Position numbers and translations under genes: made by a program
Shown: one piece after another, positions 1,140 to 27,660 of the stretch
Layout of the letters: every line of letters begins with the position of its first letter
Position numbering within the stretch: position 1 is the stretch's first letter
Source of the DNA: a virus
Lineage: Duplodnaviria > Heunggongvirae > Uroviricota > Caudoviricetes
Direction: 5' to 3' (one strand)
Length of the DNA: 28,273 nt
IMG/VR virus record: IMGVR_UViG_3300050821_010409
Span: 94,160 to 122,432 of that record
The notes under the pieces: model-generated
Database searches by the model: none
The model's input: the letters and a program-made list of their open reading frames with translations, nothing else
Told to the model about the DNA's origin: nothing

Positions 1140-1200
1140 CAGGCTGAGTGCCTGCGGCCACGGGCGGAAGGTAATTCCCGCGCGTGACCGCCAGTGCTCA
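1140..1200 (-). repeat. structured intergenic repeat family A, copy 1
   Basis: plus strand CAGGCTGAGTGCCTGCGGCCACG...CGTGACCGCCAGTGCTCA; contains the TGA stop of the upstream gene. Confidence 0.9.
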
Positions 1201-1686
1201 GCGCCCCTTTTCCAGCTCCGCGAGCAGTGCCTGGATCAGAGTGGTCATCCGGTAGTCGTAGGCCGAGCCCGTGCCGTCATTGAGGTCGCAGTCCTCGTAG
1301 TAACGGTTAGCGACCTGTTCCCAGGCGGCCATGACCTGCTGGCGCGTCCAGGCTTCCGATAGCGGGGCTTGCGCGCCTGCGAGGGCTTCAGATAGCTGGG
1401 CTTGCGCGCCTGTGAGGGCTTCCTGGACGGAGTTGATGCCCGTTACCTGGAAGACGGAGGGCGTTTCCGGGGCATCATCCCGGATGACGGTGACGGTGTA
1501 GGCGTCAAGGCCACCGAGGAGGAAGCGCGCGGCAACCCGCATGAGCGGCGTCATGGATGCCCAGGACGGGAGCTTCCCGCCTGCCTGGATGGTGGCGATG
1601 ACCTGTTCTACCAGGGCGCGCTCGCGCGGGTCACCGATTTTCGCGGGCAGGGCTAGCGCCTCTGCCGGGTTCGGCTTCATCGCCAT
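1198..1686 (-). CDS. hypothetical protein with 11-aa tandem repeat
   Basis: 162 aa ORF with RBS AAAGGAAGTGAGG; 33-bp tandem duplication at 1351-1416. Confidence 0.75.
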   Translation of the reverse strand: MAMKPNPAEALALPAKIGDPRERALVEQVIATIQAGGKLPSWASMTPLMRVAARFLLGGLDAYTVTVIRDDAPETPSVFQVTGINSVQEALTGAQAQLSEALAGAQAPLSEAWTRQQVMAAWEQVANRYYEDCDLNDGTGSAYDYRMTTLIQALLAELEKGR

Positions 1687-1689
1687 TCC

Positions 1690-1884
1690 TCACTTCCTTT
1701 CCGCGGCGTCCATGGCCGCGCGGACAGCCGGGAAAAGGCCCGGCGGGATGAAGACTTCCAGGTCCTGGTCACTGCCAGGGCAGCTGATGAGAACGGAATT
1801 GTCCTCGCGGCTGACCTCGACGTCCTCGGTGTTCCCGTCGTCATCGCCGAGCCAGATGGTGAGCCGCTTGCCGTAGCTGGTCAT
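1690..1884 (-). CDS. hypothetical protein
   Basis: 64 aa acidic ORF; start overlaps upstream stop (ATGA). Confidence 0.7.
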   Translation of the reverse strand: MTSYGKRLTIWLGDDDGNTEDVEVSREDNSVLISCPGSDQDLEVFIPPGLFPAVRAAMDAAERK

Positions 1885-2198
1885 GGCGCGAAGTGCCTCC
1901 TGTCCTCGTGCGGGCAGGCCACCAGCCGGAGGTCATCGGCGATGGCGAGCACGTTGATGCCGCGCGGGTAGTGCGGGAAGTGCACGCCCACGGCACCCGG
2001 GCGGCGCGGGCCTGCGTCCACGACGGTCCCGGCCTTCCCGGAGAACTTGCCGTTCGGGTGCCCCCGGCGGACGTAGCGGACGGTGTCGCCTTCATGGACT
2101 TCCCATTGGGCATCGGCGTAGATCCTCATGGCGCGATCCCCGTGTCCCAGGAATAGGTTTCCGGCCCGTCTGCGCCTGCCTGGTAGCGGGCGACTCAC
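1881..2198 (-). CDS. hypothetical protein, possibly SH3/KOW-like beta barrel
   Basis: VHEGDTVRY...GKAGTVV...VGVHF pattern; alternative start ATG 2129. Confidence 0.6.
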   Translation of the reverse strand: MSRPLPGRRRRAGNLFLGHGDRAMRIYADAQWEVHEGDTVRYVRRGHPNGKFSGKAGTVVDAGPRRPGAVGVHFPHYPRGINVLAIADDLRLVACPHEDRRHFAP

Positions 2199-2542
2199 GC
2201 GCCGTAGCCGTCTCCGGTCAGGGCCCGGACGGCCTGGTCAATGACCCAGGCCTTGTGGTGCGCGCCGTCATCCTGGCCGTATTCACTGATGAGGCCGAGG
2301 GCGAGCTGGACGCGCTCGGCATCCGTCTCGCCGAGGTGCCGGGCGTAGATGGCCCACGTGCGCACGCCCCCGGTTTGCGCAGGGTTCAGCAGCCAGCCGT
2401 CCTCGTGCGGGACGGGCTGCCAGGCCGGGCTGTCCGGGTGCCCGCTGACGTAGGCGGCCAGGGCGACGGACGGGTGCGAGCTGACGATGACGGCAGCCGC
2501 GTCCGGGTGCTCCCAGTGGTACAGGTCATAGGTGACCTTCAT
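2195..2542 (-). CDS. hypothetical protein
   Basis: start moved to ATG 2542 (MKVTYDLY), which overlaps the upstream stop. Confidence 0.7.
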   Translation of the reverse strand: MKVTYDLYHWEHPDAAAVIVSSHPSVALAAYVSGHPDSPAWQPVPHEDGWLLNPAQTGGVRTWAIYARHLGETDAERVQLALGLISEYGQDDGAHHKAWVIDQAVRALTGDGYGA

Positions 2543-3099
2543 GGCAGCCACCCCAGCACCCTGGTGGTGACCAGTTCGTTCCACCGCGGGCTGCCCTTGT
2601 CCGGCAGTCCTTCGCCCTCGTCCAGGTCACTGTCGTCCACTTCGACGTCGGTGTACTGGGCGGCGATGACCTCGTTCACGTCAGCACCCGGGTGGTCCAG
2701 CAGGTAGAGCGCGGCGTTGACGACCAGGTTGACGACGTCGTCTTGCGCGATGGTGTCCTCGTTCTCGTACTCGTGGTCGGGCAGCAGGTCAGCTCCGCCG
2801 TTCACGGCTGCGGAAACCTGGTCGCGGGTGTAGTGCCCGGGGCCACTGGGGCTGACGTCCACGACCGCGTAGCCGGCAGCGTCCAGCTGGAGGGTGATGA
2901 AGCCGGCCGCCTCCTGTACCGTCATTTCAGCCCGGTCGTCTTCCAGGAGCGCGTGCGCTATGACGTCTTCCGGGTTACGGGGCAGCGTGCTCTCATTCGC
3001 CTCCCGGGCGCGTTCCGCGAGCTCGTGAAGATAACCTTTCCATTGATCGCGCGTGCCGTCCGGGTGCGCGCGCTGCCATTGGGTGAATTCCATGGCCAT
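2539..3099 (-). CDS. acidic hypothetical protein
   Basis: 186 aa, RBS GAGGAG, GC3-biased codons. Confidence 0.8.
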   Translation of the reverse strand: MAMEFTQWQRAHPDGTRDQWKGYLHELAERAREANESTLPRNPEDVIAHALLEDDRAEMTVQEAAGFITLQLDAAGYAVVDVSPSGPGHYTRDQVSAAVNGGADLLPDHEYENEDTIAQDDVVNLVVNAALYLLDHPGADVNEVIAAQYTDVEVDDSDLDEGEGLPDKGSPRWNELVTTRVLGWLP

Positions 3100-3105
3100 T
3101 GCCTT

Positions 3106-3264
3106 TTACTCCTCTTCTGCCGTGAAGTCCGACCAGGCCTTGTCCCAGCCGGCCAGGTCTGTGTTCTCGACGGCCCGGATGGCGTCTTCTGCGTCCTGGT
3201 CATCGCGCACGGTGACCCTTTCGCTGTACTCGCAGTTGACCCGGACGATGAATTCCCTGCTCAC
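3106..3264 (-). CDS. hypothetical protein (52 aa, not in ORF track)
   Basis: GTG at 3264 after GAAAGGAAAAG RBS; MSREFIVRVNCEY...FTAEEE, TAA at 3106-3108. Confidence 0.7.
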   Translation of the reverse strand: MSREFIVRVNCEYSERVTVRDDQDAEDAIRAVENTDLAGWDKAWSDFTAEEE

Positions 3265-3301: not shown

Positions 3302-3577
3302 TTATGCTGTTGCGATCACGATGAGGACCGCGAGCACGGCCAGGATGACGAGCGCCATGATGAGGACGCCCTTAGGGGGCTGCTGCGCTGCAGGCTGGCC
3401 GTTTCCGGAGCGCTGCTGAAGCTGCCGGGTCCGCGCGTTGTAGCTGGCGTGGCTGGCTGCCTCGGCGGCGGTGACGATGCCGCTCAGGCCACCGGTGACA
3501 GCGAAGGCAGCGGCGTGCGCGGCCTTATGGCGGATCTTCTTGTCCTTGCGGGTGATGACGACGGGTGGCGTGCTCAT
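3302..3577 (-). CDS. small membrane protein
   Basis: 91 aa, C-terminal hydrophobic helix, RBS AAGGAAAGAG downstream of repeat A2. Confidence 0.75.
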   Translation of the reverse strand: MSTPPVVITRKDKKIRHKAAHAAAFAVTGGLSGIVTAAEAASHASYNARTRQLQQRSGNGQPAAQQPPKGVLIMALVILAVLAVLIVIATA

Positions 3578-3605
3578 GGGGTGCTTGCTCTTTCCTTTTT
3601 TCGTT

Positions 3606-3662
3606 CAGGCTGAGTGCCTGCGGCCACGAACGGGAATGCCCGCTCGTGACCGCCAGTGCTCA
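3606..3662 (-). repeat. family A repeat, copy 2
   Basis: CAGGCTGAGTGCCTGCGGCCACGAACGGG...CCCGCTCGTGACCGCCAGTGCTCA. Confidence 0.9.
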
Positions 3663-3676
3663 GCAGGGCGCACTGG

Positions 3677-3889
3677 CTAGTCCTCTTTTTCAGGCAGCGG
3701 TGATACCGCGTCCAGGCCGTGCAGGCCGATGTCCTCCAGCTGCCACGACCCTGATGGACCCAGGTTCTCGTCAATGCAGTCCCGCAGCACGGTGATGACC
3801 TCCGTGCCCTTTGTCCCGGCAGGGACGGACACCATGCCGCAGAACTCCACGAGCAGCCGGCTTCTGGTGGCCAGGGGCTTGCCGTTCAT
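3677..3889 (-). CDS. hypothetical protein
   Basis: 70 aa; start overlaps upstream stop. Confidence 0.7.
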   Translation of the reverse strand: MNGKPLATRSRLLVEFCGMVSVPAGTKGTEVITVLRDCIDENLGPSGSWQLEDIGLHGLDAVSPLPEKED

Positions 3890-6977: not shown

Positions 6978-7010
6978 GGCGGTCTTCCTTTTCGTGGTGC
7001 CGTGTCATTC

Positions 7011-7067
7011 CAGGCTGGGCGCCTGCGGCCACGAACGGGAGTGCCCGCTCGTGACCGCCAGTGCCCA
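7011..7067 (-). repeat. family A repeat, copy 3
   Basis: CAGGCTGGGCGCCTGCGGCCACGAACGGG...GTGACCGCCAGTGCCCA. Confidence 0.9.
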
Positions 7068-7076
7068 GGAGGCGGG

Positions 7077-8375
7077 TTAGCTGGCCTTGCCGTAGAAGCC
7101 GGCGCCATCGAAGCTGATGGCTGTCCAGTCCGCGTCTCGCAGCTCTTCGGCCGCGCCGTCCCAGTCGATCAGGTTCAGTGGCCACGCGGTCAGGTCCGCG
7201 CGGTTGCCGAGCGCTTCCAGGGCCTCGTCCTGTGCCCAGCTCTCGGTGAAGAAGCCTTCCTCGCGCAGGGTCCAGGTGCTGCCGCCGAGCTCGCTGGCGG
7301 CACGGCTGGCCAGGTCGCGCAGCAGCCGCAGTTCCCGGTCCAGCTCAGCCCCTAGCATGACGTGGCGGATGGTGAAGCGGGCCGGGTTGAGGTCCTCGTC
7401 ATCGAGGTACCGCGTGCACTCTTGCTCGCTGCCTGCCTCGGTGAGGACGGCCTCTCCGTCACGGTTGCGGACGATCTCGAACCCTTCCAGGTTTTCCAGG
7501 TCCGCGATCCGGGCGTTCACGGCAGCGCTGGTGATCAGCACGCTGCGGGGGGTGATGCCGATGGCGGCTCCGCTCTCGCTGTCCGGCTCAATGGCGCGGA
7601 CGGGAAGGATTGCTGTAGTGCTAGTGGCTGGCTCGGGCGTGGCCGGCTTGCTGGCAAGCGTGATGTTCGGGCTTGCCAGGTCCAGGTAGTGATTGAAGCC
7701 CGGGACGCCGTTGCTGCCTTCCGACCGGACGGCCGTGCCGTTCCCGGCGGTCAGCTTGGGCGTGGTGAACCCCCGTTCGCCCTGCTGGAGGAGGGTGGCC
7801 GTGAAGTTTACGGTGATCGTGTCGCCTTCAGCCAGCTTGAATGGCTTCGGCATGCCGGTGAGCCCTTTGTAGGATGAGTCCGCGCTCAGGTACAGGCGGT
7901 GCGTGAAGCCCTGGTCGTCCTTGACCTGCCAGGTGCCCAGTGGCTGCCCGAACGAGGCGTCGGTGATGACCCCTGTGAACGCGGCGCGCACTGTGGTGCC
8001 GGGCGGGAAGTCCCGGGTGCCTGGCGCTGGCACGGGCGTGATGGACGGCGAGTCAAGGTTCAGGTAGTGGTAGTACTGCTGCCCGGCGGGACTGTCGCGT
8101 ACCTCCACCTTCGTGAGGCCGTCCCGGATGATGACGGGCGTGCCCGGGATCGTGGTGAGGAAGCGGACCTTGATGAGCTCGCCGGGCTTTCCTGACAGGG
8201 GGTCTCCCAGGACCTGCTTCCGGGAATCAGCGGTGCCGAGGTACAGGCAGTGGATGGTGCCGTTGCCAGGGCCTCCTTCTTCCCGGACCCGGGTTGTGGA
8301 CAGGGGACCAGCTGTCTCGCTCAGGACCATGGCCGTGAAGGCCACCTCGATGTCCTGGCCAGCTGCATATGCCAT
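7077..8375 (-). CDS. modular hypothetical protein: four beta-rich repeats plus acidic C-terminal domain (paralog of 8454..9482)
   Basis: repeats ..G..I.V.FT...H.LYL/HYL.L; C-terminus WPL..IDWD.AAEELRDADW. Confidence 0.85.
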   Translation of the reverse strand: MAYAAGQDIEVAFTAMVLSETAGPLSTTRVREEGGPGNGTIHCLYLGTADSRKQVLGDPLSGKPGELIKVRFLTTIPGTPVIIRDGLTKVEVRDSPAGQQYYHYLNLDSPSITPVPAPGTRDFPPGTTVRAAFTGVITDASFGQPLGTWQVKDDQGFTHRLYLSADSSYKGLTGMPKPFKLAEGDTITVNFTATLLQQGERGFTTPKLTAGNGTAVRSEGSNGVPGFNHYLDLASPNITLASKPATPEPATSTTAILPVRAIEPDSESGAAIGITPRSVLITSAAVNARIADLENLEGFEIVRNRDGEAVLTEAGSEQECTRYLDDEDLNPARFTIRHVMLGAELDRELRLLRDLASRAASELGGSTWTLREEGFFTESWAQDEALEALGNRADLTAWPLNLIDWDGAAEELRDADWTAISFDGAGFYGKAS

Positions 8376-8399
8376 GACGTTTTTCCCTTTCTTCTCTTT

Positions 8400-8456
8400 C
8401 AGGCTGGGCGCCTGCGGCCACGGGCGGGAAAGCCCGCCCGCGACCGCCAGTGCTCA
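8400..8456 (-). repeat. family A repeat, copy 4
   Basis: CAGGCTGGGCGCCTGCGGCCACGGGCGGG...GCGACCGCCAGTGCTCA; includes upstream stop. Confidence 0.9.
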
Positions 8457-9482
8457 GGCAGGCTGGCCGTAGTAGGAAAGGCCGTCAAAGGGCACGGGCG
8501 TCCAGCTTGCGTCCCGCAGCTCGAAGGCGGCGCGCTCCCAGTCGATGACCGACAGCGGCCATGCGTTCAGGTCGGCGCCCGCGCCCAGGATGGGGAGGGC
8601 CAGCCCCCGGGCCCAGCTCGCGTCGAAGTAATCGTCCTCGCGCAAGATCCACGAGCGCGTGCCCAGCCGGGCGAGGGCGCTCTCCTGCAGTGCCAGCAGC
8701 GATCCCAGTTCCGCGACCGTGTCCTCGTCCAGGTTCTCGCGGACGACGACGCGCTCGGGGTTCCAGTCCTCGTCCGTGATGAACGAGCGGCATGCTTCCT
8801 GGCTGCTGCCGGCGAAGAGCACCTCGCCCGTGCGGAGCCTGACGACCTCGTACCGCGAGACGGCAGTCAGCACGCCGATCCGGGCGCTGACGCCCGTGCT
8901 GGTGACTTCGGTGTCTTCATTGGTGATGGGGAGGCTCGCTGCCGTGGTGTACCCGGGTGGGGTCGCCGTCACCGTGCTCGTGCTGCCAGCGGCCCGGCGG
9001 GCGTCCAGGAGGGCTTGCGTGGCCACCATGGCCGGGCTGTCCGTTGTCAGTGCAGCCAGGAGGGCTGCTGCCTGTTCCCTGGTCGGTGCCGTCTCGGTGC
9101 CCGTGCTGTCCGGTTCTTCTGCGTCCGGCTTGCTGGCGACAGCCGTGATGAACGAGCTTGCCAGGTTCAGGTAGTGGAAGTAACCCTTGGACTCCACTTC
9201 CGTGGTCCCGGCGGGCGGGGTTTCCGTGGTTCCCTTGGGGGCGTCAGCGCGGGGGATGGTAGCCGTGAAGGACACCGTGACGCGCTCGCCGTCCCGTGGC
9301 TCGCGAGACAGCGGCCAGCGGTTCAGGACATCGTCCCGGGCCTCGAAGTCATCCAGGTACAGGTATTGCGTGAAGCCGTCAGGGTCCTTGACCGCGTAGG
9401 TGGCATTGATGAGATTGCCCGTGCTGTCGGTGATCTTTCCGGTGAACGCGACGCGGATCACGTCTCCTGGTTCATAAGGCAT
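8454..9482 (-). CDS. modular hypothetical protein: two beta-rich repeats plus acidic C-terminal domain (paralog of 7077..8375)
   Basis: start ATG 9482 after GAAAGG; shares HYL.LAS..IT..ASKP and ADL.AWPL..IDW..AA.ELRDA.W with neighbour. Confidence 0.85.
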   Translation of the reverse strand: MPYEPGDVIRVAFTGKITDSTGNLINATYAVKDPDGFTQYLYLDDFEARDDVLNRWPLSREPRDGERVTVSFTATIPRADAPKGTTETPPAGTTEVESKGYFHYLNLASSFITAVASKPDAEEPDSTGTETAPTREQAAALLAALTTDSPAMVATQALLDARRAAGSTSTVTATPPGYTTAASLPITNEDTEVTSTGVSARIGVLTAVSRYEVVRLRTGEVLFAGSSQEACRSFITDEDWNPERVVVRENLDEDTVAELGSLLALQESALARLGTRSWILREDDYFDASWARGLALPILGAGADLNAWPLSVIDWERAAFELRDASWTPVPFDGLSYYGQPA

Positions 9483-9511
9483 GTGCGTGCCCTTTCGTTG
9501 TCTCTTCTTCC

Positions 9512-9568
9512 CAGGCTGGGTGCCTGCGGCCACGGGCGGGGCATCCCGTCCGTGACCGCCAGCCGTCA
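9512..9568 (-). repeat. family A repeat, copy 5
   Basis: CAGGCTGGGTGCCTGCGGCCACGGGCGGG...CGTGACCGCCAG; ends in upstream stop. Confidence 0.9.
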
Positions 9569-10936
9569 GCTGCTGACCGCGCTCAGCATGGTGGCCAGGG
9601 CCGCGGTCCGGGGGCCGAGCCGGAACATCGCCACGCTGCTGGCGTCTTCTGCCGCGAGGCCCGCGGCGCGCTCGGCGTCGGTGAACCCGATGCCGGCGGC
9701 AGGCCCGATCCGGTAGGACTCGATGGGTGATGCTTGCGCTGCCAGCACCGGGCCATTACTGCTGCTGCGCCCGCGCCCGCGCCGGGGGCCATAGCTGAGC
9801 GAGTCGGTCAGCGCGGGCAGCATGTAGCCTGTGCACTGGATGGCCAGGTCGTAGGTGCGGTCATTGACCAGCACGCCACCGGGCACCGGCACCGGGTAGC
9901 CGGACTGCCCGGCCAGCCGCAGCCGGGTGCTCGGGCTGCTGGCGTTGCCTTCCAGGTACTGGGCCAGCCGCAGGTACCGGCCGCGCTTGCCCTCCCGGAA
10001 TTCGGAGCACGTCAGGCCGCTCAGGGCCGGCGCGTAGACGTCCACGCGCTGCACGCAGTCCAGTCCGATGGTGGAGGTGTGGCCAGGGGCGAGGCCCAGC
10101 AGGGACTCGGCAGCGCACAGCCCGCTGTTGCCGCCGCCGATGATCGCCACCTGAGCCAGCCCGCGCAGCGGGAACGGGGTGCCCATCCGGGCCATGAACT
10201 GCGGGAAGCTCAGTATCCGCTCGCCGTCGCCCTTGCTGGCCGGGTTGCCCAGGCCGCGCGCGTCCAGCACCCGGGCGCAGGAGAGGGTGCCTTCATTGGT
10301 GGCCAGCGTTATGGACTTGCCGCTGGGGCTGCTGACCCTGCCGCTGATGCTGGTGACGGTGACGCCCGGGGTCACGTCCGCGAATTGCGCCAGCAGCAGC
10401 CGGACCAGCCAGGCCACCAGGGCGTTGTCCGCGTACTCCTGTGAGGTGAGCATGGCCAGCGGCGGGAAGCCCGTCCCGGCCGGGAAGAAGTTCAGCCCCT
10501 TGTCCTGGTCAGGCAGCCCGGACGGGCCGGGCCGGTTGCGGGAGTTCAGCCAGAACACGGGCTGCATGCTCATCGCGAAGGCGCCCCCGACGCTCTCTGG
10601 CTCATTGCGCTCCAGGACGACGGGCTTGGGGAAGCCGGCCATGACGCGGCTGGCTGCGTAGACGGCCGCGTGGTAGCCGCCGCCGATGATGACCTCCCGG
10701 CCAGCCAGGTTCGTGAAGGCAGCTGCTGGCGGGCGCGACCAGTACTGCGTGAGCGCTGCCGTCATCAGCTGGCGCGCTTCGGGGACCATGGCGATCCCGG
10801 CCAGCTGCATTTCCGTCATGCTGGCGAAGTCGGCGGCGCGGGACGCGCACAGGGTGATCCCCTCCGACAGCCGCTTCTTGTCCAGGCACTGCTCGATCAC
10901 GTCCCGGATGACCGGGGCCAGTTCAGGCTCTGCCAT
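9566..10936 (-). CDS. FAD/NAD(P)-binding flavoprotein (monooxygenase/oxidoreductase-like)
   Basis: two dinucleotide-binding motifs VIIGGGYHA and VAIIGGGNSG, plus DARGLG and YDLAIQCTGY; start ATG 10936 after AGAAAGGA. Confidence 0.7.
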   Translation of the reverse strand: MAEPELAPVIRDVIEQCLDKKRLSEGITLCASRAADFASMTEMQLAGIAMVPEARQLMTAALTQYWSRPPAAAFTNLAGREVIIGGGYHAAVYAASRVMAGFPKPVVLERNEPESVGGAFAMSMQPVFWLNSRNRPGPSGLPDQDKGLNFFPAGTGFPPLAMLTSQEYADNALVAWLVRLLLAQFADVTPGVTVTSISGRVSSPSGKSITLATNEGTLSCARVLDARGLGNPASKGDGERILSFPQFMARMGTPFPLRGLAQVAIIGGGNSGLCAAESLLGLAPGHTSTIGLDCVQRVDVYAPALSGLTCSEFREGKRGRYLRLAQYLEGNASSPSTRLRLAGQSGYPVPVPGGVLVNDRTYDLAIQCTGYMLPALTDSLSYGPRRGRGRSSSNGPVLAAQASPIESYRIGPAAGIGFTDAERAAGLAAEDASSVAMFRLGPRTAALATMLSAVSS

Positions 10937-10969
10937 TGCCGTGTTCCTTTCTTGTCGTGTCCGCTTGTC

Positions 10970-11034
10970 CTGGCCGGACAGCAAGAAGCCCCTTTCCTGC
11001 GGTCAGGAAAGGGGCTTCCGGGCTGACGGGCCAG
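10970..11034 (-). repeat. family B hairpin (divergent copy)
   Basis: 14-bp stem GAAGCCCCTTTCCT/AGGAAAGGGGCTTC flanked by CAGC-AA and CGG-GCTG as in other B copies. Confidence 0.7.
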
Positions 11035-11047
11035 TGCTGCTTTCTTG

Positions 11048-12586: not shown

Positions 12587-12612
12587 GAGCGGTCCTTTCT
12601 TGGTCCTTGCCT

Positions 12613-12669
12613 CAGGCTGGGCGCCTGCGGCCGTGCACGGGAAGGCCCGTGCACGACCGCCAGTGCCCA
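12613..12669 (-). repeat. family A repeat, copy 6
   Basis: CAGGCTGGGCGCCTGCGGCCGTGCACGGG...CCCGTGCACGACCGCCAGTGCCCA. Confidence 0.9.
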
Positions 12670-12673
12670 GTTG

Positions 12674-12853
12674 TCAGTAATGCCATTCCGTGCTGGACGT
12701 CAGCGCCATTGCCTTGCCGACGTCGGCTAGGGCTGCCTGGTAGGTTTCCTTGTAGGTAGTTGACTCGGGTGTGGTGAGGACGGCGCGGTTCAGCCGCGTG
12801 AGCGTTTCGGCTAGTACCCCCAGCTGGTAATCGGCGGTGTCAGCGATGCTCAT
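12674..12853 (-). CDS. hypothetical protein (59 aa, not in ORF track)
   Basis: MSIADTADYQLGVL...TSSTEWHY; ATGA overlap with upstream gene; AGAAAGGAAAAAG RBS. Confidence 0.7.
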   Translation of the reverse strand: MSIADTADYQLGVLAETLTRLNRAVLTTPESTTYKETYQAALADVGKAMALTSSTEWHY

Positions 12854-13949: not shown

Positions 13950-13979
13950 GGCAGCCTCCTTTCTTGCTCGATGTCAGTC

Positions 13980-14037
13980 CAGGCTGAGCGCCTGCGGCCG
14001 TGGGCGGGGAGTGCCCGTCCGCGACCGCCAGTACCCA
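13980..14037 (-). repeat. family A repeat, copy 7
   Basis: CAGGCTGAGCGCCTGCGGCCGTGGGCGGGG...GCGACCGCCAGTACCCA. Confidence 0.9.
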
Positions 14038-14061
14038 GTATCACCGAGTATGCAGGGTGCC

Positions 14062-15439: not shown

Positions 15440-15446
15440 GCGGGGG

Positions 15447-16430: not shown

Positions 16431-16486
16431 GGCTGGCTTCCTTCTCTTCCTTCTCGGGCGTGGTTCTTCTTCATGGGGGTTGCGGG

Positions 16487-17515: not shown

Positions 17516-17555
17516 GACTGCTGGCTTCCTTTCTTGGTTGCGCTTGCATCGCCTG

Positions 17556-17630
17556 CTGACGGCAGGCAGCGAAACGGCCCGCTTCCCCCCGTGGTGCAGG
17601 AAAAGCGGGCCGCTCGGGCTGCCTGGTCAG
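17556..17630 (-). repeat. family B hairpin
   Basis: CTGAC..CAGGCAGC-GA-AACGGCCCGCTT...AAGCGGGCCGCT-CGG-GCTGCCTG-GTCAG; includes upstream stop. Confidence 0.8.
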
Positions 17631-17815
17631 GTGGCTGGCAGGGCCTGCCCGGTTCTTGCGGCATCGATCTTGGCCTTCATGGCGGCCTGCCAGTCAGTTA
17701 GGGGCCTGGTCCCGATGCCAGCGAGCTGCGCGTGCACCCACAGGTGGTGGGCGTGCGCGGTCCCGCATGCGGTGCAAGTACCGTCAGGCGCCAGCCAGTG
17801 GATCCCGTTCTTCAT
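17627..17815 (-). CDS. small CxxC protein
   Basis: 62 aa, CTAC..H.HH; ATGA overlap with upstream gene. Confidence 0.65.
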   Translation of the reverse strand: MKNGIHWLAPDGTCTACGTAHAHHLWVHAQLAGIGTRPLTDWQAAMKAKIDAARTGQALPAT

Positions 17816-19077: not shown

Positions 19078-19117
19078 GACAGGCGCTTCCTTTCTTGGTT
19101 GCCGTGCGGGTGCGTCC

Positions 19118-19185
19118 CTGACCGGGACAAGGAAAGCGCCCGTTTCCCCTTGCCGGGAAAGCGGGCGCTTAGCTTCTGGGGTCAG
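19118..19185 (-). repeat. family B hairpin
   Basis: CTGACC...AAGCGCCCGTTTCCC...GGGAAAGCGGGCGCTT...GGTCAG; includes upstream stop. Confidence 0.85.
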
Positions 19186-19580
19186 AAAGCAGCGCTGATT
19201 TTCTTCCAGATGGCGGGGAATGGCGTAGCCTGGTCGTTCAGCGTGGCGAGCGTGGTGTATTCCGGACGGCTGCTGCTCATCCAGATCCGGGGGTTGGGGG
19301 AAGGCAGCTGCGCCCATTCCACGATGGCCTGGGGCAGTACCTCGCTGTCGGCATCGGTGGCGTCCGTGACGCTGACATACTGGTAGATGTTGCTGCCCGG
19401 GATGAGCTCACGCCGCACGATTCCTGCCAGCACTCCCCGTTCGCACAGGCCGCCGAGGCAGCAAAATGTGTCATTGCTGCCATCGGTGGCAGCGCCTGCA
19501 TGGCGCAGCGCGCCGCCTCCTTGCCGGTTGGCGTTGGCGAGCAGCCATTCGCCCCACTCGGCCTTGATTTCCGGGTTCAT
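19182..19580 (-). CDS. CCLG-motif phage-type hypothetical protein (tandem paralog 1 of 3)
   Basis: MNPEIKAEWGEWLLANA...TFCCLGGLCE. Confidence 0.85.
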   Translation of the reverse strand: MNPEIKAEWGEWLLANANRQGGGALRHAGAATDGSNDTFCCLGGLCERGVLAGIVRRELIPGSNIYQYVSVTDATDADSEVLPQAIVEWAQLPSPNPRIWMSSSRPEYTTLATLNDQATPFPAIWKKISAAF

Positions 19581-19609
19581 TTCCGGTTTTCCTTTCTTGT
19601 TTGCCGTGC

Positions 19610-19633
19610 CAGGCAGCCGGGGCTGCGAGTCAG
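19610..19633 (-). repeat. shrunken family B derivative (outer stem only)
   Basis: CAGGCAGC-CGGG-GCTGC..GTCAG resembles the flanks of copy 17556-17630 without the inner stem; includes upstream stop. Confidence 0.55.
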
Positions 19634-20007
19634 AACGTGCTGTTGATCGCGTCCCAGATGACCGGGAAGGGGGTCTCGTTGTCGTTCATCCCGGCGAGCG
19701 TGCCCACTCTGACACAGGGGTCGTCGTTGGGCAGTTCCGCCCATTCCACGATGGCCCGAGGCAGCGTGGCCATGCTGAAGTCGGTGGCGTCCGTGACGCT
19801 GGTGTACCTGTAGCGGTTGTGGCCGGGGATCAGCTCACGGCGCACAATTCCTGCCAGCATTCCCAGTTCGCACAGGCCGCCGAGGCAGCAGAATGTGTCC
19901 TCGCTGCCATCCGGGGCAGCGCCGGCGCGGCGCAGCATTCTCTTTCCTTGCCTGTGGGCGTTGGCGAGCAGCCATTCACCCCAGTCAGCCTTGATTTCCG
20001 GGTTCAT
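19630..20007 (-). CDS. CCLG-motif hypothetical protein (tandem paralog 2 of 3)
   Basis: start ATG 20007 after AGAAAGGAAAAC; TFCCLGGLCE. Confidence 0.85.
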   Translation of the reverse strand: MNPEIKADWGEWLLANAHRQGKRMLRRAGAAPDGSEDTFCCLGGLCELGMLAGIVRRELIPGHNRYRYTSVTDATDFSMATLPRAIVEWAELPNDDPCVRVGTLAGMNDNETPFPVIWDAINSTF

Positions 20008-20055
20008 TTCCTGTTTTCCTTTCTTGCGCATTGCTTTGACGGCTAGGGCAGCGCG

Positions 20056-20436
20056 TCAGAAAGCGGCGTTGATCCTGTCCCAGATGACCGGGAAGGGGAT
20101 CGTGTTATCGTTCATCACGGTGAGCGTGTAACCCGAGGATGTCAGGGGGTTGACGGAGGGCAGCTCAGCCCATTCCACGATTGCCCGGGGCAGCCTGACC
20201 GTGCTGACGTCGGTGGCGTCCGTGACGCTGGTGTACTGGTAGAGGCGGCTGCCCGGGATGAGCTCACGCCGCACGATGCCGGCAGCCGCGCCTAGCTCGC
20301 ACAGGCCGCCGAGGCAGCAGAAGGTGTCATCGCTGCCGTCTGGGGCTGCGCCTGCACGATGCAGTGCGCCGCCCCCTTGCTTGCCGGCGTTGGCGAGCAG
20401 CCATTCGCCCCACCCGGCCTTGATGTCCTGGTTCAT
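20056..20436 (-). CDS. CCLG-motif hypothetical protein (tandem paralog 3 of 3)
   Basis: start ATG 20436 after AAGGAAGGAAAAAG; TFCCLGGLCE. Confidence 0.85.
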   Translation of the reverse strand: MNQDIKAGWGEWLLANAGKQGGGALHRAGAAPDGSDDTFCCLGGLCELGAAAGIVRRELIPGSRLYQYTSVTDATDVSTVRLPRAIVEWAELPSVNPLTSSGYTLTVMNDNTIPFPVIWDRINAAF

Positions 20437-20470
20437 TGTGCTTTTTCCTTCCTTGCGCGTTGCCCTGCTG

Positions 20471-20523
20471 GACAGCAAAGCGCTCCGTTCCCGGCAGGCG
20501 GGAGCGGAGCGCTAGGGCTGCTC
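20471..20523 (-). repeat. family B hairpin
   Basis: CAGC-AA-AGCGCTCCGTTCCC...GGGAGCGGAGCGCT-AGG-GCTG. Confidence 0.85.
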
Positions 20524-20538
20524 ATCAGGAGGCTAGCG

Positions 20539-21681: not shown

Positions 21682-21708
21682 GACGCTCTCCTTTCTTTTC
21701 CCGTTATC

Positions 21709-21769
21709 CAGGCTGGGTGCCTGCGGCCGTGCACGGGGAGTTGCCCCCGTGCACGACCGCCAGTATCCG
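21709..21769 (-). repeat. family A repeat, copy 8
   Basis: CAGGCTGGGTGCCTGCGGCCGTGCACGGGG...CCCCGTGCACGACCGCCAGTATCC. Confidence 0.9.
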
Positions 21770-21775
21770 GGCTGG

Positions 21776-22102
21776 TTAAATGGCCGATGGTGCGCTGGCG
21801 ATCAGCTCCCGGAAATTCCGGAGCGTGGCCGCGTTGCCGAACGTGTCGCCGAAGGGAAGCCTTTCCTTGTCTTGCTCCGTGAAGCCGAGCAAGGCTTCCG
21901 CTTCCGTTCCGGCTTCCCAGCACAACAGCATGCTGCCGTCTGGCCGGGTGAACGTGGGGTGGTACTCTGCGTGATCGCAGCTGTAGCCGGAGAGCACGAG
22001 CGTGATGGCGGCCAGGCAGCGCGTCCAGTCGTTGGCGTTGTACTCCTCGGGGTGCGCTTCGGCATAGTCCGCGACCCTGGTAGCCAAGTCGGTGTTTCGC
22101 AT
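21776..22102 (-). CDS. hypothetical protein (distant paralog of 24130..24585)
   Basis: LA......E..N...W...C.......PDG......A..LL pattern; RBS AAAAGGAAG. Confidence 0.75.
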   Translation of the reverse strand: MRNTDLATRVADYAEAHPEEYNANDWTRCLAAITLVLSGYSCDHAEYHPTFTRPDGSMLLCWEAGTEAEALLGFTEQDKERLPFGDTFGNAATLRNFRELIASAPSAI

Positions 22103-22256: not shown

Positions 22257-22276
22257 GGCGTTTCCTTTCTCCTGTG

Positions 22277-22334
22277 CAGGCTGGGTGCCTGCGGCCGTGC
22301 ACGGGAATTGCCCGTGCGCGACCGCCAGTACCCT
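22277..22334 (-). repeat. family A repeat, copy 9
   Basis: CAGGCTGGGTGCCTGCGGCCGTGCACGGG...CCCGTGCGCGACCGCCAGTACCC. Confidence 0.9.
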
Positions 22335-22336
22335 GG

Positions 22337-22384
22337 CTATTCGTCTTCTTCCTCCTCGCCCTCTTCAGGACCGTATTCCGTCAT
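22337..22384 (-). CDS. possible acidic micropeptide (15 aa)
   Basis: MTEYGPEEGEEEEDE preceded by GGAGAGGAGG. Confidence 0.35.
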   Translation of the reverse strand: MTEYGPEEGEEEEDE

Positions 22385-22853: not shown

Positions 22854-23116
22854 GAGCCGCCTGGCGGTGCCGTCAGCGCGGTGATGAAGGCAGGGATGAA
22901 GAATGACAGGGTGATCTCGACGGACGGGTTGCCGTCTGCGTAGTCAGCAATGGCCAGCAGGAGCATGACGGACAGCCCTTCGGGAGCTATCTGCTCTCCT
23001 GCGTGTGCTGCAATCTTCGGGTACAGGCAGCAGACGGCGCGTTGCTCCTCGAAGACGCTGCGCAGCCGTGCGACCATCTCCTCTTCAGCGGGCAGCGTGA
23101 TCCGGTTGCCGGGCAT
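22850..23116 (-). CDS. hypothetical protein
   Basis: 88 aa, RBS AAAGGGAAAGAAG downstream of B copy. Confidence 0.7.
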   Translation of the reverse strand: MPGNRITLPAEEEMVARLRSVFEEQRAVCCLYPKIAAHAGEQIAPEGLSVMLLLAIADYADGNPSVEITLSFFIPAFITALTAPPGGS

Positions 23117-23148
23117 GATCGTTTCTTCTTTCCCTTTGGGTGCTTGCC

Positions 23149-23214
23149 CTGACCGGGCAGTGAAGCGCTCCGTTCCCGTGGACGGGGAGCGGAGCGCTCG
23201 GACTGGCTGGTCAG
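23149..23214 (-). repeat. family B hairpin
   Basis: CTGACC.GGCAGT-GA-AGCGCTCCG...CGGAGCGCT-CGG-ACTG.CTGGTCAG. Confidence 0.9.
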
Positions 23215-23228
23215 GCGAGGGCGTGCGG

Positions 23229-24019: not shown

Positions 24020-24054
24020 GGCGTTGTGCCCCTTTTCTTAGCCCATCTGGTTTC

Positions 24055-24122
24055 GCCCGTGATCAGGCAATGAAGCGCTCCGCTTTCCTGCTCAGGGAGA
24101 GCGGAGCGCTCGGATTGCCGGG
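24055..24122 (-). repeat. family B hairpin, identical to 25046-25113
   Basis: 68-nt exact match by eye; GGCAAT-GA-AGCGCTCCGCT...AGCGGAGCGCT-CGG-ATTGCC. Confidence 0.95.
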
Positions 24123-24129
24123 CCCGGGA

Positions 24130-24585: not shown

Positions 24586-24613
24586 GGGCAGTGATCCTTT
24601 CCTTGCGTGCATG

Positions 24614-24685
24614 CCCTGACTGGGCAATGAAGCGCTCCGCATCCCACGGCTAGGGAAGCGGAGCGCTCGGATTGCCGGGTCAGGG
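24614..24685 (-). repeat. family B hairpin
   Basis: CCCTGAC.GGGCAATGAAGCGCTCCGC...GCGGAGCGCTCGGATTGCCGGGTCAGGG; includes upstream stop. Confidence 0.9.
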
Positions 24686-25018: not shown

Positions 25019-25045
25019 GGACGCTCTCTTTTCTCTTCTCCTGAT

Positions 25046-25117
25046 GCCCGTGATCAGGCAATGAAGCGCTCCGCTTTCCTGCTCAGGGAGAGCGGAGCGC
25101 TCGGATTGCCGGGTCAG
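25046..25117 (-). repeat. family B hairpin, first 68 nt identical to 24055-24122
   Basis: exact repeat; includes upstream stop at 25114. Confidence 0.95.
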
Positions 25118-25302
25118 TGGCTTGCTACCTCGATGAAGTGCGCGGCCCCGTCCTTGGTGGAGTAATAGGCGAAGCGCGCGCTGCCGAGGAGGGCAAACGC
25201 TTCCCGGATGGTCGTTGCGTACATGTTCAGGGAATAGCCTGTTCCGTACGTGATGATGGCTGGCTCACTGGCGTGCTGGTCAGCCCATGCCTGGTCGGGC
25301 AT
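25114..25302 (-). CDS. hypothetical protein (62 aa)
   Basis: start moved to ATG 25302 after GAGGAAAGGA. Confidence 0.7.
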   Translation of the reverse strand: MPDQAWADQHASEPAIITYGTGYSLNMYATTIREAFALLGSARFAYYSTKDGAAHFIEVASH

Positions 25303-26270: not shown

Positions 26271-26509
26271 CGCGTGACTGTCCTGATCTCGGTGGCGTGC
26301 AGGGCGAAGTCGCGCAGCAGGGCACCGTAATCCCAGTAGCAGGACTGGCCGATGGGCAGGTTTTCGCCATCGAATGCTTCGAATGCCATGAAGCGTGCTT
26401 TCTTGAAACAGTAATCACAGCTATGACGCCAGCGGCGCAGGGGATTGGGCTTGGCGTGCTTGCTGCGCTTGATGACCCGTTTCCTGAGCAGGATGATCAG
26501 CAACTTCAT
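26267..26509 (-). CDS. basic CxxC protein (80 aa)
   Basis: start ATG 26509 overlapping upstream stop; SCDYCF...CYWD. Confidence 0.65.
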   Translation of the reverse strand: MKLLIILLRKRVIKRSKHAKPNPLRRWRHSCDYCFKKARFMAFEAFDGENLPIGQSCYWDYGALLRDFALHATEIRTVTR

Positions 26510-26892
26510 GACGTGGCCTGCCCTTCGCGCCGTTCCAGTTCCTGGAATTCCGCGATGGCTTGCGCCCACGCCTGCGGGAACGTGACCTTGATGTAGCCAG
26601 TCAGCCACGCGAGCGCGTGCAGTTCGCTGACCGTGACGTCAGGGCAGCTGGCGATGTGCGGCCTGCTGTGGCACTCGTACAGTCCTGAGAGCGCGTCGTG
26701 CATTCCCCTGCTGAACGCTTCAGGTCCTGGCTGCGCTTGCGCGCCTGCGTACCGGTCAGCGATGGCGTCAAGGTGGCGCCAGTTACCCTGGCTGATGATG
26801 CACTCGACGGTGCGGGCTTTCTCGTCATCGGTGCCCGTCCAGGCATAGCACAGCAGCCAGCGCCGGACGACATCTTCTGAGAGCGTGCTCAT
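26506..26892 (-). CDS. hypothetical protein
   Basis: 128 aa, RBS AGAAAGGAG. Confidence 0.8.
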   Translation of the reverse strand: MSTLSEDVVRRWLLCYAWTGTDDEKARTVECIISQGNWRHLDAIADRYAGAQAQPGPEAFSRGMHDALSGLYECHSRPHIASCPDVTVSELHALAWLTGYIKVTFPQAWAQAIAEFQELERREGQATS

Positions 26893-26938
26893 GGTGTTTT
26901 CTCCTTTCTCGTGTTCCTTGCGTGCCTTGTTTCCTGCG

Positions 26939-27005
26939 GCGTAAGGTCATGGCCAGCGATTTCCCTGTGCTGTCCTTGGGAGATCACTGGCCATGAGCCG
27001 GCGCT
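26939..27005 (-). repeat. family C hairpin repeat, copy 3
   Basis: GCGTAAG-G-TCATGGCCAG/CTGGCCATGA (10-bp stem)-GCCGGCGCT. Confidence 0.75.
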
Positions 27006-27030
27006 GCTGGTCATCGGTGAAGCGGCAGCC

Positions 27031-27558
27031 TCACCACGACTCCTCGGCAACGATTGTCCACGTGAACAGGTAGCGCGGGTCATAGTGCCTGCTGCATTCC
27101 GCGCAGCTCATGGTCTTGGCTGCTCGCGTTAGCCGGTGGCGTCGCAGGACGTGGCCGTTAGGGCAGGTGCCCCGGTACGTGCCCGCGATGGCGAGCTCAT
27201 CATCAAAGCACCGCTCCGGGTTCGCGCCGATCAGCACGCACATGTGCCGCCATTCCTGGTCATGGCCGCCGGTGGTGAGCGCGTGCGCGATCTCGTGCAG
27301 GATGACGTCCTTGATCATGGCGTAGTTTCCGGCACGCTGCCATTTCGTCATGATTGGCGCGCTCAGTCCGATCACCGGGATTTCCCGGCGGCACACGCCG
27401 GCCCGCTGCTTGCTCTCGTCAAACGCCAGCGTCCAGTCGCCGATGTCGTGCACGATCATGAGTGGCTCTGCCATCTCGCGGACGCCGCGTGGTTCTGGCG
27501 TCGTCCCGGTGACGAGGGTCGCTCCCATGCTCGCCAGGAAGTCCGGCATTGCCGCCAT
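27031..27558 (-). CDS. SprT-like zinc metalloprotease
   Basis: FD....RAG.C, VILHEIAHAL (HExxH), GHDQEW, C-terminal CPNGH...CAEC, as expected for the SprT family. Confidence 0.85.
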   Translation of the reverse strand: MAAMPDFLASMGATLVTGTTPEPRGVREMAEPLMIVHDIGDWTLAFDESKQRAGVCRREIPVIGLSAPIMTKWQRAGNYAMIKDVILHEIAHALTTGGHDQEWRHMCVLIGANPERCFDDELAIAGTYRGTCPNGHVLRRHRLTRAAKTMSCAECSRHYDPRYLFTWTIVAEESW

Positions 27559-27599
27559 CGTGATTCACCTCATTTCCTTGGTTCCTGCGTTGCCAGTAC

Positions 27600-27660
27600 C
27601 GGGCTGAGTGCCCGTGGCCGCACGCGGGAGCGTTTTCCCGCGCGCGACCATGGATGCTCA
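27600..27660 (-). repeat. family A repeat, copy 10 (divergent, with compensatory changes)
   Basis: CGGGCTGAGTGCCCG-TGGCCGCACGCGGGA...TCCCGCGCGCGACCA-TGGATGCTCA; includes upstream stop. Confidence 0.8.

What the first reader, a model, noticed from the sequence alone, without database searches (positions are those of the whole stretch)
1140..27660. Family A: 57-61 nt repeat (10 copies) with covarying double hairpin and probable pseudoknot
Seen on the coding strand: UGRG-YACUGG-[CGGUC..stem-loop..GGCCG]-[CAGGC-RCYCA-GCCUG], ending 20-41 nt before a start codon. The apical stem varies but stays paired (CACGAGCGGG/CCCGUUCGUG in copies 2 and 3; CGUGCACGGG/CCCGUGCACG in copy 6). Copy 10 has two compensatory changes: CGG/CCG to UGG/CCA at the base of the long stem, and CAGGC/GCCUG to CGGGC/GCCCG in the small hairpin. 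The 5' UGRG can pair with the small loop and co-varies: UGAG/CUCA (copies 1, 2, 10), UGGG/CCCA (3, 6), UGGG/CUCA (7), GGG/CCC (9); it is imperfect in copies 4, 5 and 8. Inference: selection acts on a fold rather than sequence alone. I do not recognise it as a known riboswitch or ribozyme. It could be a nuclease site, exonuclease block, self-cleaving RNA or protein-binding ssDNA/RNA site.
Basis: partly seen in the sequence, partly recalled or inferred. Interest (0 to 1): 0.88.

Follow-up and report, generated by a model that had tools for sequence, protein, structure and literature searches.

The report
Repeated RNA hairpin between phage genes
A roughly 60-base folded element sits between gene blocks of a large soil phage and its relatives, starting at the stop codon of one gene and ending just before the ribosome site of the next; it most likely acts on the messenger RNA and marks where genes get reshuffled, a kind of element seen in other phages but here with an unusual built-in two-state fold.

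Summary
The repeat is real. A covariance model finds exactly 12 copies in the 122-kb virus record. Eleven are in the window and all lie on the coding (-) strand of one 36-kb leftward arm. About 33 more copies occur in related metagenomic phage contigs.

No Rfam family matches, even at E<=1. None of the one-per-species GTDB prokaryote genomes scanned carries a true copy.

Covariation is strong for the long stem and real for the 5'-UGRG/CYCA-3' helix. That helix is better read as the base of one long, imperfect hairpin of about 24-26 bp. As a pseudoknot it would leave zero linker nucleotides. The small CAGGC/GCCUG hairpin competes with the hairpin base; it becomes the best fold only when the 5' arm is blocked.

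The upstream gene's stop codon lies inside the 5' arm in 18 of 45 copies and no more than 30 nt before it in 14 more. The next start codon follows after a median of 28 nt, across a purine-rich leader.

There is no sigma-70-like promoter and no U-tract. The 122 kb encodes no detectable RNase III, recombinase, sigma factor or Y1 transposase.

Cassettes bounded by copies are permuted, gained and lost between relatives.

Best reading: an intercistronic mRNA processing or stability hairpin that the terminating ribosome opens. This is inferred, not shown. This scan has already met the same kind of element in at least eight other phage genomes, so this is a new variant of a known kind.

The parts
1134..1207 (-). 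Family A copy c1. The upstream gene (1198..1680) ends at the UGA inside the 5' arm. The downstream 56-aa gene starts 30 nt after CCUG.
   Evidence: CM hit 80.7 bits; stop and start positions; fold.
3600..3669 (-). Family A copy c2, between gene 3677..3889 and gene 3302..3577.
   Evidence: CM hit 84.1 bits; long-hairpin minimum-energy fold, -42 kcal/mol.
7005..7074 (-). Family A copy c3 (5' arm CUGGGC, 3' GCCCAG). The stop codon TAA lies 11 nt before the arm.
   Evidence: CM hit 82.1 bits.
8394..8463 (-). Family A copy c4, between the two tandem paralogues. The upstream stop codon is the UGA in the arm.
   Evidence: CM hit 83.9 bits.
9506..9575 (-). Family A copy c5, directly after the flavoprotein gene, whose stop codon is the UGA in the arm. 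An orthologous copy follows the flavoprotein gene in L039, L041 and L043.
   Evidence: CM hit 75.3 bits.
12607..12676 (-). Family A copy c6. Its downstream 147-aa gene is also preceded by a copy in L041.
   Evidence: CM hit 79.9 bits.
13974..14044 (-). Family A copy c7. Its downstream 284-aa gene is also preceded by a copy in L041 (87% aa identity).
   Evidence: CM hit 78.7 bits.
21703..21776 (-). Family A copy c8. The 5' arm is weak, and the small 3' hairpin is the predicted fold.
   Evidence: CM hit 81.4 bits.
22271..22341 (-). Family A copy c9. The 5' arm is weak, and the small 3' hairpin is the predicted fold.
   Evidence: CM hit 76.8 bits.
27594..27667 (-). Family A copy c10, with compensatory changes in the stem base (U-A) and in the small hairpin (CGGGC/GCCCG).
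   Evidence: CM hit 69.3 bits.
28005..28078 (-). The 5' arm is UUGAAU and the 3' arm AUUCAA. A different small hairpin (GGAUUC/GAAUCC) overlaps the 3' arm.
   Evidence: CM hit 60.1 bits; sequences.

Best explanation
Family A is a cis-acting element of the polycistronic mRNA of this phage's leftward accessory-gene arm.

Anatomy. Each copy is one long imperfect hairpin of about 24-26 bp:
- a variable tip;
- an invariant core holding G.A and U.G pairs and a small C/A internal loop;
- a 5-6 bp base.
It fills the gap between the stop codon of one gene block and the purine-rich ribosome-binding leader of the next.

Most likely function. It punctuates the transcript in one or both of these ways:
- as a site for a double-strand-specific endonuclease, with host RNase III, used as phage T7 uses it, as the model;
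- as a barrier to 3'-to-5' exonucleases, which sets the relative stability of the flanking cistrons.

Ribosome gating. The stop codon lies in or just before the 5' arm, so a terminating ribosome must open the hairpin base. The conserved 3' tail (GCCUG) then pairs with the freed CAGGC to form the small hairpin. The element therefore toggles with translation of the upstream gene.

Side effect on DNA. The direct repeats act as recombination points where gene cassettes are permuted, gained and lost.

Shown: the copies, the fold and its covariation, the positions relative to stop and start codons, the absence of promoter and U-tract, and cassette shuffling at copies.
Inferred: action on RNA, the nuclease or stability role, and ribosome gating.
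For: (1) Copies. There are 12 in the record, all in the sense orientation and all intergenic. About 33 more lie in related contigs L035-L039, L041, L043 and L046, again all on the coding strand.

(2) Fold.
- In 45 copies the long stem is 94% paired and covaries: 20-47 is GC 33 / AU 10, 23-44 is GC 27 / AU 13, 29-38 is GC 34 / AU 10.
- The base helix is 86% paired and covaries: 10-57 is AU 30 / GC 9, 12-55 is CG 13 / UA 13.
- A G.A mismatch (42/45) and two U.G wobbles (42/45 and 38/45) are nearly invariant.
- The sense strand folds better than the antisense strand, -961 against -904 kcal/mol summed over 23 copies.

(3) Position. The upstream ORF's stop codon is inside the 5' arm in 18 of 45 copies and no more than 30 nt before it in 14. 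One compensatory change (CUGGGC/GCCCAG to CUAGGC/GCCUAG) created the UAG that is used as the stop. The start codon follows a median of 28 nt after the element, across a purine-rich Shine-Dalgarno leader.

(4) It is read through rather than being a stop-and-restart point.
- The whole window has no sigma-70-like promoter and no copy has a U-tract.
- The 20-41 nt before the start codon leave no room for a promoter.
- Mycobacterial RNA polymerase needs a U-tract to terminate (PMC3993855).

(5) Toggle.
- Masking the stop codon plus 13 nt makes the small hairpin the best fold in most of the A copies tested.
- Copy c10 compensates CGGGC/GCCCG, and c11 has a different hairpin overlapping its 3' arm.
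- The unrelated B-type hairpins of the same arm have the same three-strand layout with 5-6 different small-stem sequences.

(6) Size and shape. A hairpin of at least 20 bp with a small internal loop between cistrons resembles the T7 RNase III sites (established knowledge: Dunn and Studier, T7 sites R0.3 to R18.5).

(7) Shuffling. Genes directly after a copy in L041 are orthologues of genes directly after a copy in the window, but the cassette order differs and cassettes are gained or lost at copies.
Against: - There are no expression data of any kind, so no cleavage, transcript end or structure has been observed.
- The phage record encodes no RNase III. The host is unknown and presumed to be an actinobacterium, so the nuclease is hypothetical.
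- Outside the two fixed wobble positions, G.U and A.C mismatches are equally common (19 against 23). The strand signal therefore rests on those two columns and on orientation.
- The small hairpin is almost invariant, so its pairing is supported by one compensated Family A copy plus the analogy with Family B. The per-copy shuffled-tail tests are only marginal (p 0.03-0.2).
- Invariance of CAGGC..GCCUG and of the core could instead reflect a sequence-specific protein acting on DNA.
Confidence: 0.5

Rival explanations
1. Translation-gated transcription attenuator. The full hairpin stops or pauses RNA polymerase when the upstream gene is not being translated. A ribosome at the stop codon inside the 5' arm prevents the base from forming, so transcription continues into the next cassette.
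For: The stop codon lies in or just before the 5' arm. The hairpin is very stable at -34 to -50 kcal/mol. Masking the 5' arm leaves only the tip hairpin plus the small hairpin. Tail-less hairpins have been reported as terminators in actinophage phiC31 (my recollection of Ingham et al. 1995, not checked here).
Against: No copy has a U-tract; the 3' flank is purine-rich. Mycobacterial RNA polymerase requires a U-tract in vitro (PMC3993855). More than 20 strong hairpins in series with no detectable promoters between them would silence distal genes unless termination were very weak.
Confidence: 0.14
2. Translational coupling or insulation device. The folded hairpin brings the stop codon at its 5' base next to the leader at its 3' base. 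Terminating ribosomes are then handed on to the next start codon, or the hairpin isolates the downstream ribosome site from upstream structure.
For: The geometry is constant: stop at the 5' base, then a Shine-Dalgarno leader and a start codon a median of 28 nt after the 3' base, in 40 scorable copies. Genes inside a block are coupled by overlapping stop and start codons (gaps of -4), so coupling is the norm in this arm.
Against: A 60-nt hairpin is not needed for coupling; overlaps achieve it elsewhere in the same arm. This model does not explain the invariant non-canonical core. In 14 copies the stop codon is up to 30 nt before the arm, and in 4 it is further away.
Confidence: 0.1
3. DNA-level element. 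Either it is a site for a recombinase or another DNA-binding protein (integron attC-like hairpins in single-stranded DNA, or stoperator-like silencing sites), or it is a selfish palindromic repeat whose only effect is recombination between copies.
For: Cassette order is permuted, and cassettes are gained or lost, exactly at copies between the window and L041. Conserved arms with a variable tip recall attC. CAGGC-N5-GCCTG has the geometry of a dimer operator. All copies share one orientation.
Against: The 122 kb has no tyrosine or serine recombinase and no Y1 transposase, although 19% of the genome is missing. The attC core motifs and extrahelical bases are absent. B-type copies keep the small hairpin with 5-6 different half-site sequences, which argues for structure rather than a duplex operator. 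The tight registration with stop codons and ribosome sites is unexplained by a DNA role. Copies at orthologous junctions are inherited in place with compensatory changes.
Confidence: 0.13
4. Promoter for an unrecognised phage RNA polymerase or phage-modified host polymerase. The invariant 3' half would be the recognition sequence and transcripts would start in the purine-rich leader.
For: The conserved block lies at a fixed short distance upstream of start codons. No host-type promoter exists anywhere in the window, so the promoters of this arm are unidentified.
Against: The 122 kb has no sigma factor or T7-like polymerase (the control for the latter was uninformative). A promoter does not explain covariation of a 14-bp stem and of the 5' arm with the 3' arm.
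Confidence: 0.05

Closest known systems
RNase III processing sites of coliphage T7 (R0.3, R0.5, R1, R1.1, R1.3, R3.8, R4.7, R6.5, R13, R18.5)
   Same: About ten related irregular hairpins of at least 20 bp with an internal loop. Each lies between the stop codon of one cistron and the ribosome site of the next in long polycistronic mRNAs. The phage itself encodes no RNase III and uses the host's.
   Different: There is no sequence relation. The host is high-GC and probably an actinobacterium. Cleavage is untested. Here the stop codon lies inside the stem base, and a 3' tail offers an alternative small hairpin; I know of neither feature in the T7 sites (from memory).
PeSL cassettes (promoter-early stem-loops) of T4-type phages (PMC2839356, PMC4122927)
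   Same: A repeated intergenic motif containing a stem-loop, confined to hyperplastic accessory-gene regions. Recombination between copies shuffles, deletes and inserts small gene cassettes.
   Different: PeSLs combine a strong sigma-70 promoter with a terminator hairpin. Family A has no promoter-like sequence and no U-tract, and its hairpin is far longer.
SAS/ESAS repeats of cluster K mycobacteriophages (PMC3203893; function still untested in PMC12699233)
   Same: Actinobacteriophage repeats restricted to the non-structural half of the genome, in one orientation, immediately upstream of start codons. ESAS is an imperfect inverted repeat with a variable spacer. Copies are conserved at orthologous genes across subclusters.
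   Different: ESAS has 17-bp arms with a 4-13 bp spacer and is tied to a 13-bp SAS that includes the ribosome site. Family A has about 26-nt arms, no SAS motif and an embedded stop codon. There is no sequence similarity.
REP/BIME elements of enterobacteria
   Same: Extragenic but transcribed imperfect palindromes, often close to stop codons. They stabilise upstream mRNA against 3' exonucleases (established knowledge).
   Different: REPs are about 35-40 nt, occur in hundreds of chromosomal copies and are linked to RAYT transposases. Family A occurs only in phage contigs, with no Y1 transposase and no true copy in the GTDB genomes scanned.
Integron attC sites
   Same: Conserved paired ends with a variable tip, one per cassette boundary, all in the same orientation in an array of mostly unknown genes.
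   Different: The RYYYAAC/GTTRRRY cores are absent, there are no extrahelical bases, no integrase was found, and cassettes hold 1-14 genes.

Membership tests
Any Rfam family (release 15) | Covariance-model match at or near the family's gathering score | tested here: not met
   No match at gathering thresholds. At E<=1 there were only two chance hits, neither at a Family A copy.
T7-type RNase III processing site | Intercistronic hairpin of about 20 bp or more with an internal loop, inside a polycistronic transcript | tested here: met
   A 24-26 bp imperfect hairpin with a conserved G.A mismatch and C/A loop, lying between stop codon and ribosome site. That it is transcribed is inferred from the absence of a promoter or terminator at the copies.
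T7-type RNase III processing site | Cleavage by RNase III at a defined position | not testable with these tools
   No RNA run holds this sequence. The phage record has no RNase III gene and the host is unknown.
PeSL (T4-type promoter-early stem-loop) | Strong sigma-70-type early promoter within the repeat | tested here: not met
   No sigma-70-like sites in the whole window on either strand. The 3' flank is purine-rich with almost no T.
PeSL (T4-type promoter-early stem-loop) | Copies bound gene cassettes that are shuffled between related phages | tested here: met
   Cassette order is permuted, and cassettes are gained or lost, at copies between the window and L041.
Canonical intrinsic terminator | GC-rich hairpin followed at once by a U-tract | tested here: not met
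   No terminator-like site coincides with a copy on the - strand. The hairpin is followed by CCUG and a purine-rich run.
Integron attC | R''/R' core sites (RYYYAAC ... GTTRRRY) and extrahelical bases | tested here: not met
   The alignment of 45 copies shows neither motif. Mismatches are symmetric 1x1 or 2x2.
Integron attC | Adjacent IntI-type tyrosine recombinase | tested here: not met
   PF00589 has no hit in the 122 kb, although the control genomes all ring. The record is 81% complete, so absence is not proven.
REP/BIME with RAYT | Many chromosomal copies in a bacterial host, and a Y1 (RAYT) transposase | tested here: not met
   The pattern scan of the one-per-species GTDB genome collection gave one chance hit inside a gene that, read by eye, looks like hypE. 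PF01797 is absent from the record.
Cluster K SAS/ESAS | 13-bp SAS GGGATAGGAGCCC at the start codon, with 17-bp inverted repeats upstream | tested here: not met
   The leaders carry ordinary AAGGA/GGAG sites and no SAS-like block. The arm length and sequence differ from those described in PMC3203893.
   The 3' strand of the 5'-arm helix fills 4-5 of the 5 loop nucleotides of the small hairpin, leaving 0 nt before the hairpin's 3' strand (columns 66-71 of A2). The nested long hairpin is the best fold in 21 of 23 copies and is favoured in 37 of 43. The steric judgement is my inference.

The most novel reading that the evidence does not exclude
The element is a ribosome-operated three-strand RNA switch.

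The 5' arm carries the upstream gene's stop codon, and the 3' tail mimics that arm. Both compete for the same 3' arm. Each termination event therefore flips the RNA from one long hairpin to a stacked tip-plus-small-hairpin form. This flip decides whether the junction is cut or degraded, or whether the next cassette is expressed.

The same layout recurs with unrelated sequences in the B-type hairpins of this phage. It would then be a general design principle for gene-cassette junctions in a clade of large soil actinophages, not an accident of one repeat family.
Probability: 0.3. Interest if true: 0.7.

Novelty: new variant of a known kind. Interest (0 to 1): 0.52.

Why it matters
Repeated hairpins between early or accessory genes are turning up in many uncultured phages, including at least eight other genomes in this scan. 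Their function has been tested only for T7 RNase III sites and T4-type PeSLs. The nearest actinophage analogue, ESAS, is still unexplained after 15 years.

Family A is a well-sampled case: 45 copies from at least six phage contigs, with clear covariation, an invariant non-canonical core and a stop codon built into the stem. That makes three ideas directly testable with small constructs:
- RNase III-type processing;
- ribosome-gated refolding;
- recombination at copies.

It also gives annotators a covariance model that marks cassette boundaries in a group of 110-145 kb soil phages that also carry CRISPR-Cas12 and TIGR-like systems.

Tried and rejected
- Exact-core pattern scan of IMG/VR: 20 hits, all chance, with no hairpin and no 3' motif.
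- Pattern scan of GTDB genomes: one hit, inside a gene that, read by eye, looks like hypE, in a Solirubrobacteraceae MAG. It scores 28 bits, does not fold as the family does, and has no homology to the phage.
- Megablast of 25 kb against cultured phages (INPHARED): no match.
- Protein-based locus search with the AAA_25 ATPase in IMG/VR: no relatives.
- Relation to the phage's own CRISPR repeat at 77.0-78.7 kb of the record: none. Only CUGGC is shared.
- Expression: no RNA holder was listed for the window in public runs; five soil DNA runs hold it. This is neither evidence for nor against expression.
- Pfam and PHROGs on ten flanking proteins: mostly no family. Hits were an AAA_25 ATPase, a flavoprotein and a peptidase, with no RNA-binding or nuclease candidate.
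- Family searches of the record for RNase III, tyrosine and serine recombinases, sigma-70 region 2, T7-like RNA polymerase and Y1 transposase: all negative. The RNA polymerase control rang nowhere, so that result is uninformative.
- An automatic genome-wide test for the toggle failed because the hairpin boundaries were set inconsistently. A hand-anchored version gave only marginal per-copy p-values.
- Chi-like, sigma-54-like and ECF-promoter-like readings of the conserved core were considered by eye and dropped. There is no conserved spacing or motif, and they would not explain the covariation.
- More distant phages carrying the same flavoprotein (L044 and L045, 45-53% identity) have no Family A copy.

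Full report
CONTEXT

The window is the last 28.3 kb of a 122,432-bp IMG/VR virus record (linear, CheckV 81% complete, 68% GC). Earlier notes on the same record describe a phage-borne Cas12-like nuclease with a 22-repeat array, and a TIGR-like locus. I read the array, and its repeat is unrelated to Family A.

Genes of the window lie on the - strand. They belong to a leftward arm of about 36 kb (record 86-122 kb), made of many small genes of unknown function. Pfam and PHROGs recognise only an AAA_25 ATPase, a flavoprotein and a peptidase among ten flanking proteins.

The flavoprotein has 51-66% identical relatives on many 80-145 kb metagenomic contigs. It has 40-44% relatives in Actinoplanes and Micromonospora genomes, so the host is probably an actinobacterium.

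THE OBSERVATION

A covariance model built with only the long stem as structure (R1) finds exactly 12 sense copies in the record:
- a divergent one at 28005-28078;
- one at record 90753-90826.

All are on the - strand. The weaker + strand matches are mirror images of a near-palindrome. Rfam has nothing at gathering scores or at E<=1.

RELATIVES

An exact-core pattern found no true copy in IMG/VR and only a chance match in the one-per-species GTDB genome collection. It did find five metagenome contigs with 11 copies.

Contigs were then fetched through flavoprotein homologues:
- L041 (109.7-kb contig) added 12 copies in 21 kb.
- L043 (117-kb contig) added about 10 diverged copies.
- L046 added 2 weak copies.
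- Two more distant phages, L044 and L045, have none.

After mirror hits were removed, 45 full-length sense copies remain.

STRUCTURE

Pair counts hold at 12, 23 and 45 copies; the shuffle and slide controls were run at 12 and 23.
- The 14-bp long stem is 94% paired, with many double changes.
- The helix between the 5' CUGRGC and the 3' GYCYAG is 86% paired and covaries. Examples are a G-C to A-U change that creates CUAGGC/GCCUAG, and fully different arms in L046 and c11.
- A G.A mismatch and two U.G wobbles are almost invariant, while the helices around them vary. That pattern suggests a recognition motif.
- The small hairpin CAGGC-N5-GCCUG is 96% paired but nearly invariant. Only c10 shows a compensated change.

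I judge this sterically impossible (inference).

The same pairs form the base of one nested hairpin. That hairpin is the minimum-energy fold in 21 of 23 copies and is favoured in 37 of 43, by a median of 3.9 kcal/mol. The small hairpin is therefore a competing conformer: its 5' strand and loop are the 3' arm of the hairpin's lower half.

POSITION

The upstream ORF's stop codon is the UGA (once a UAG) at positions 2-4 of the 5' arm in 18 of 45 copies, and no more than 30 nt upstream in 14. No ORF runs through the hairpin.

The next start codon follows a median of 28 nt after CCUG, in a purine-rich leader with AAGGA or GGAG.

Masking the stop codon plus 13 nt, roughly what a terminating ribosome covers, makes the small hairpin the predicted fold in most of the A copies tested.

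OTHER HAIRPINS IN THE ARM

Nearly every other intergenic gap of 83 nt or more in the arm holds a different long hairpin.

The B-type hairpins share the same three-strand layout with unrelated sequence:
- a stop codon UGAC at the 5' base;
- a 3' arm ending in GUCA;
- a tail that can pair back to form a small hairpin whose loop is that GUCA.

The small stems have 5-6 different sequences. This supports the toggle as a design. My per-copy shuffle tests are only marginal, however (p 0.03-0.2), and an automatic survey failed technically.

WHAT IT IS NOT

- The window has no sigma-70-like promoter, and no hairpin-plus-U-tract coincides with a copy.
- Actinobacterial RNA polymerase needs a U-tract to terminate (PMC3993855).
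- The record has no detectable RNase III, tyrosine or serine recombinase, sigma factor or Y1 transposase. The T7-like RNA polymerase search also found nothing, but its control rang nowhere, so that result is uninformative.
- attC cores and the SAS motif are absent.

EVOLUTION

Genes directly downstream of a copy in L041 are orthologues of genes directly downstream of a copy in the window, at seven junctions. The cassette order nevertheless differs:
- The c6 and c7 cassettes are swapped.
- The small gene after c1 follows the flavoprotein's copy in L041.
- Extra mini-cassettes flanked by copies exist in L041.

Orthologous copies differ by compensatory changes, for example c5 against the copy after the flavoprotein gene in L039. 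The copies are therefore inherited in place under selection for pairing. They also serve as recombination points, as PeSLs do in T4-type phages (PMC2839356).

INTERPRETATION

The following all point to a cis-element of a read-through polycistronic mRNA:
- sense orientation in every copy;
- registration with stop and start codons;
- no room for a promoter;
- no U-tract;
- hairpin length of at least 20 bp with an internal loop.

The best functional analogue is the set of T7 RNase III sites. REP-like protection against exonucleases is a closely related alternative. Ribosome gating follows from the geometry but is inference.

I give about 0.5 to this combined RNA processing or stability model. The rest is split between a translation-gated attenuator, a coupling device, a DNA-level site and an unknown-polymerase promoter. 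No expression data exist.

NOVELTY

The scan has already described stop-hairpin-RBS repeats in at least eight other phage genomes. Known analogues are PeSL, T7 sites and ESAS.

What is new here:
- the family itself, which is not in Rfam;
- its spread in a clade of large soil actinophages;
- the competing small hairpin, shared by unrelated families in the same arm.

I therefore class it as a new variant of a known kind.

Noticed in passing
window 10937-11047, 15349-15446, 17516-17626, 19078-19181, 20437-20538, 22967-23228, 24020-24129, 24586-24679, 25020-25135: The B-type intergenic hairpins have unrelated sequence but the same layout as Family A. A stop codon UGAC sits at the 5' base, the hairpin is long with a pyrimidine-rich internal loop, and a small 3' hairpin has a loop (xGUCA) that is the partner of the stop codon. 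The small stems have 5-6 different sequences. Only 15349 lacks the small hairpin.
   Followed up: partly
window 1-28273, both strands: There is not one sigma-70-like promoter match in 28 kb (about 1 expected per half), and almost no canonical terminator on the coding strand. The promoters of this 36-kb arm are unidentified.
   Followed up: partly
L041:7096-7879: Three Family A copies lie within 800 bp in the 109.7-kb relative. They flank two tiny ORFs with no homologue in the window, and look like freshly inserted mini-cassettes.
   Followed up: no
L038:1251-1324 and L039:8025-8100, the 3' flanks: In two copies the purine-rich leader is preceded by an AT-rich insert (ATACTCTAAGATAC and ATACTATAACAGAC). 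It resembles an actinobacterial -10 element and could be a promoter acquired next to the hairpin.
   Followed up: no
window 9566-10936 (-): The flavoprotein is the best-conserved gene of the arm. It has more than 50 relatives at 51-66% identity on large phage-like contigs and 40-44% relatives in Actinoplanes, Micromonospora, Phytohabitans and Rugosimonospora genomes. It is a useful marker for this phage group and a hint at the host.
   Followed up: partly
window 7077-9482; 14062-19077; 19182-20436: Three sets of tandem paralogues: two acidic-tailed proteins separated by a Family A copy, three 340-430 aa paralogues around a peptidase, and three 125-132 aa paralogues. This fits repeat-mediated duplication in the arm.
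   Followed up: no
L045:7851-8039 and L043:19861-20616 / L045:5765-6556 / L046:4538-5374: Related phages carry a Pup-like gene and Ku genes in the equivalent arm (precomputed Pfam hits). These support an actinobacterial host and suggest linear-genome end protection.
   Followed up: no
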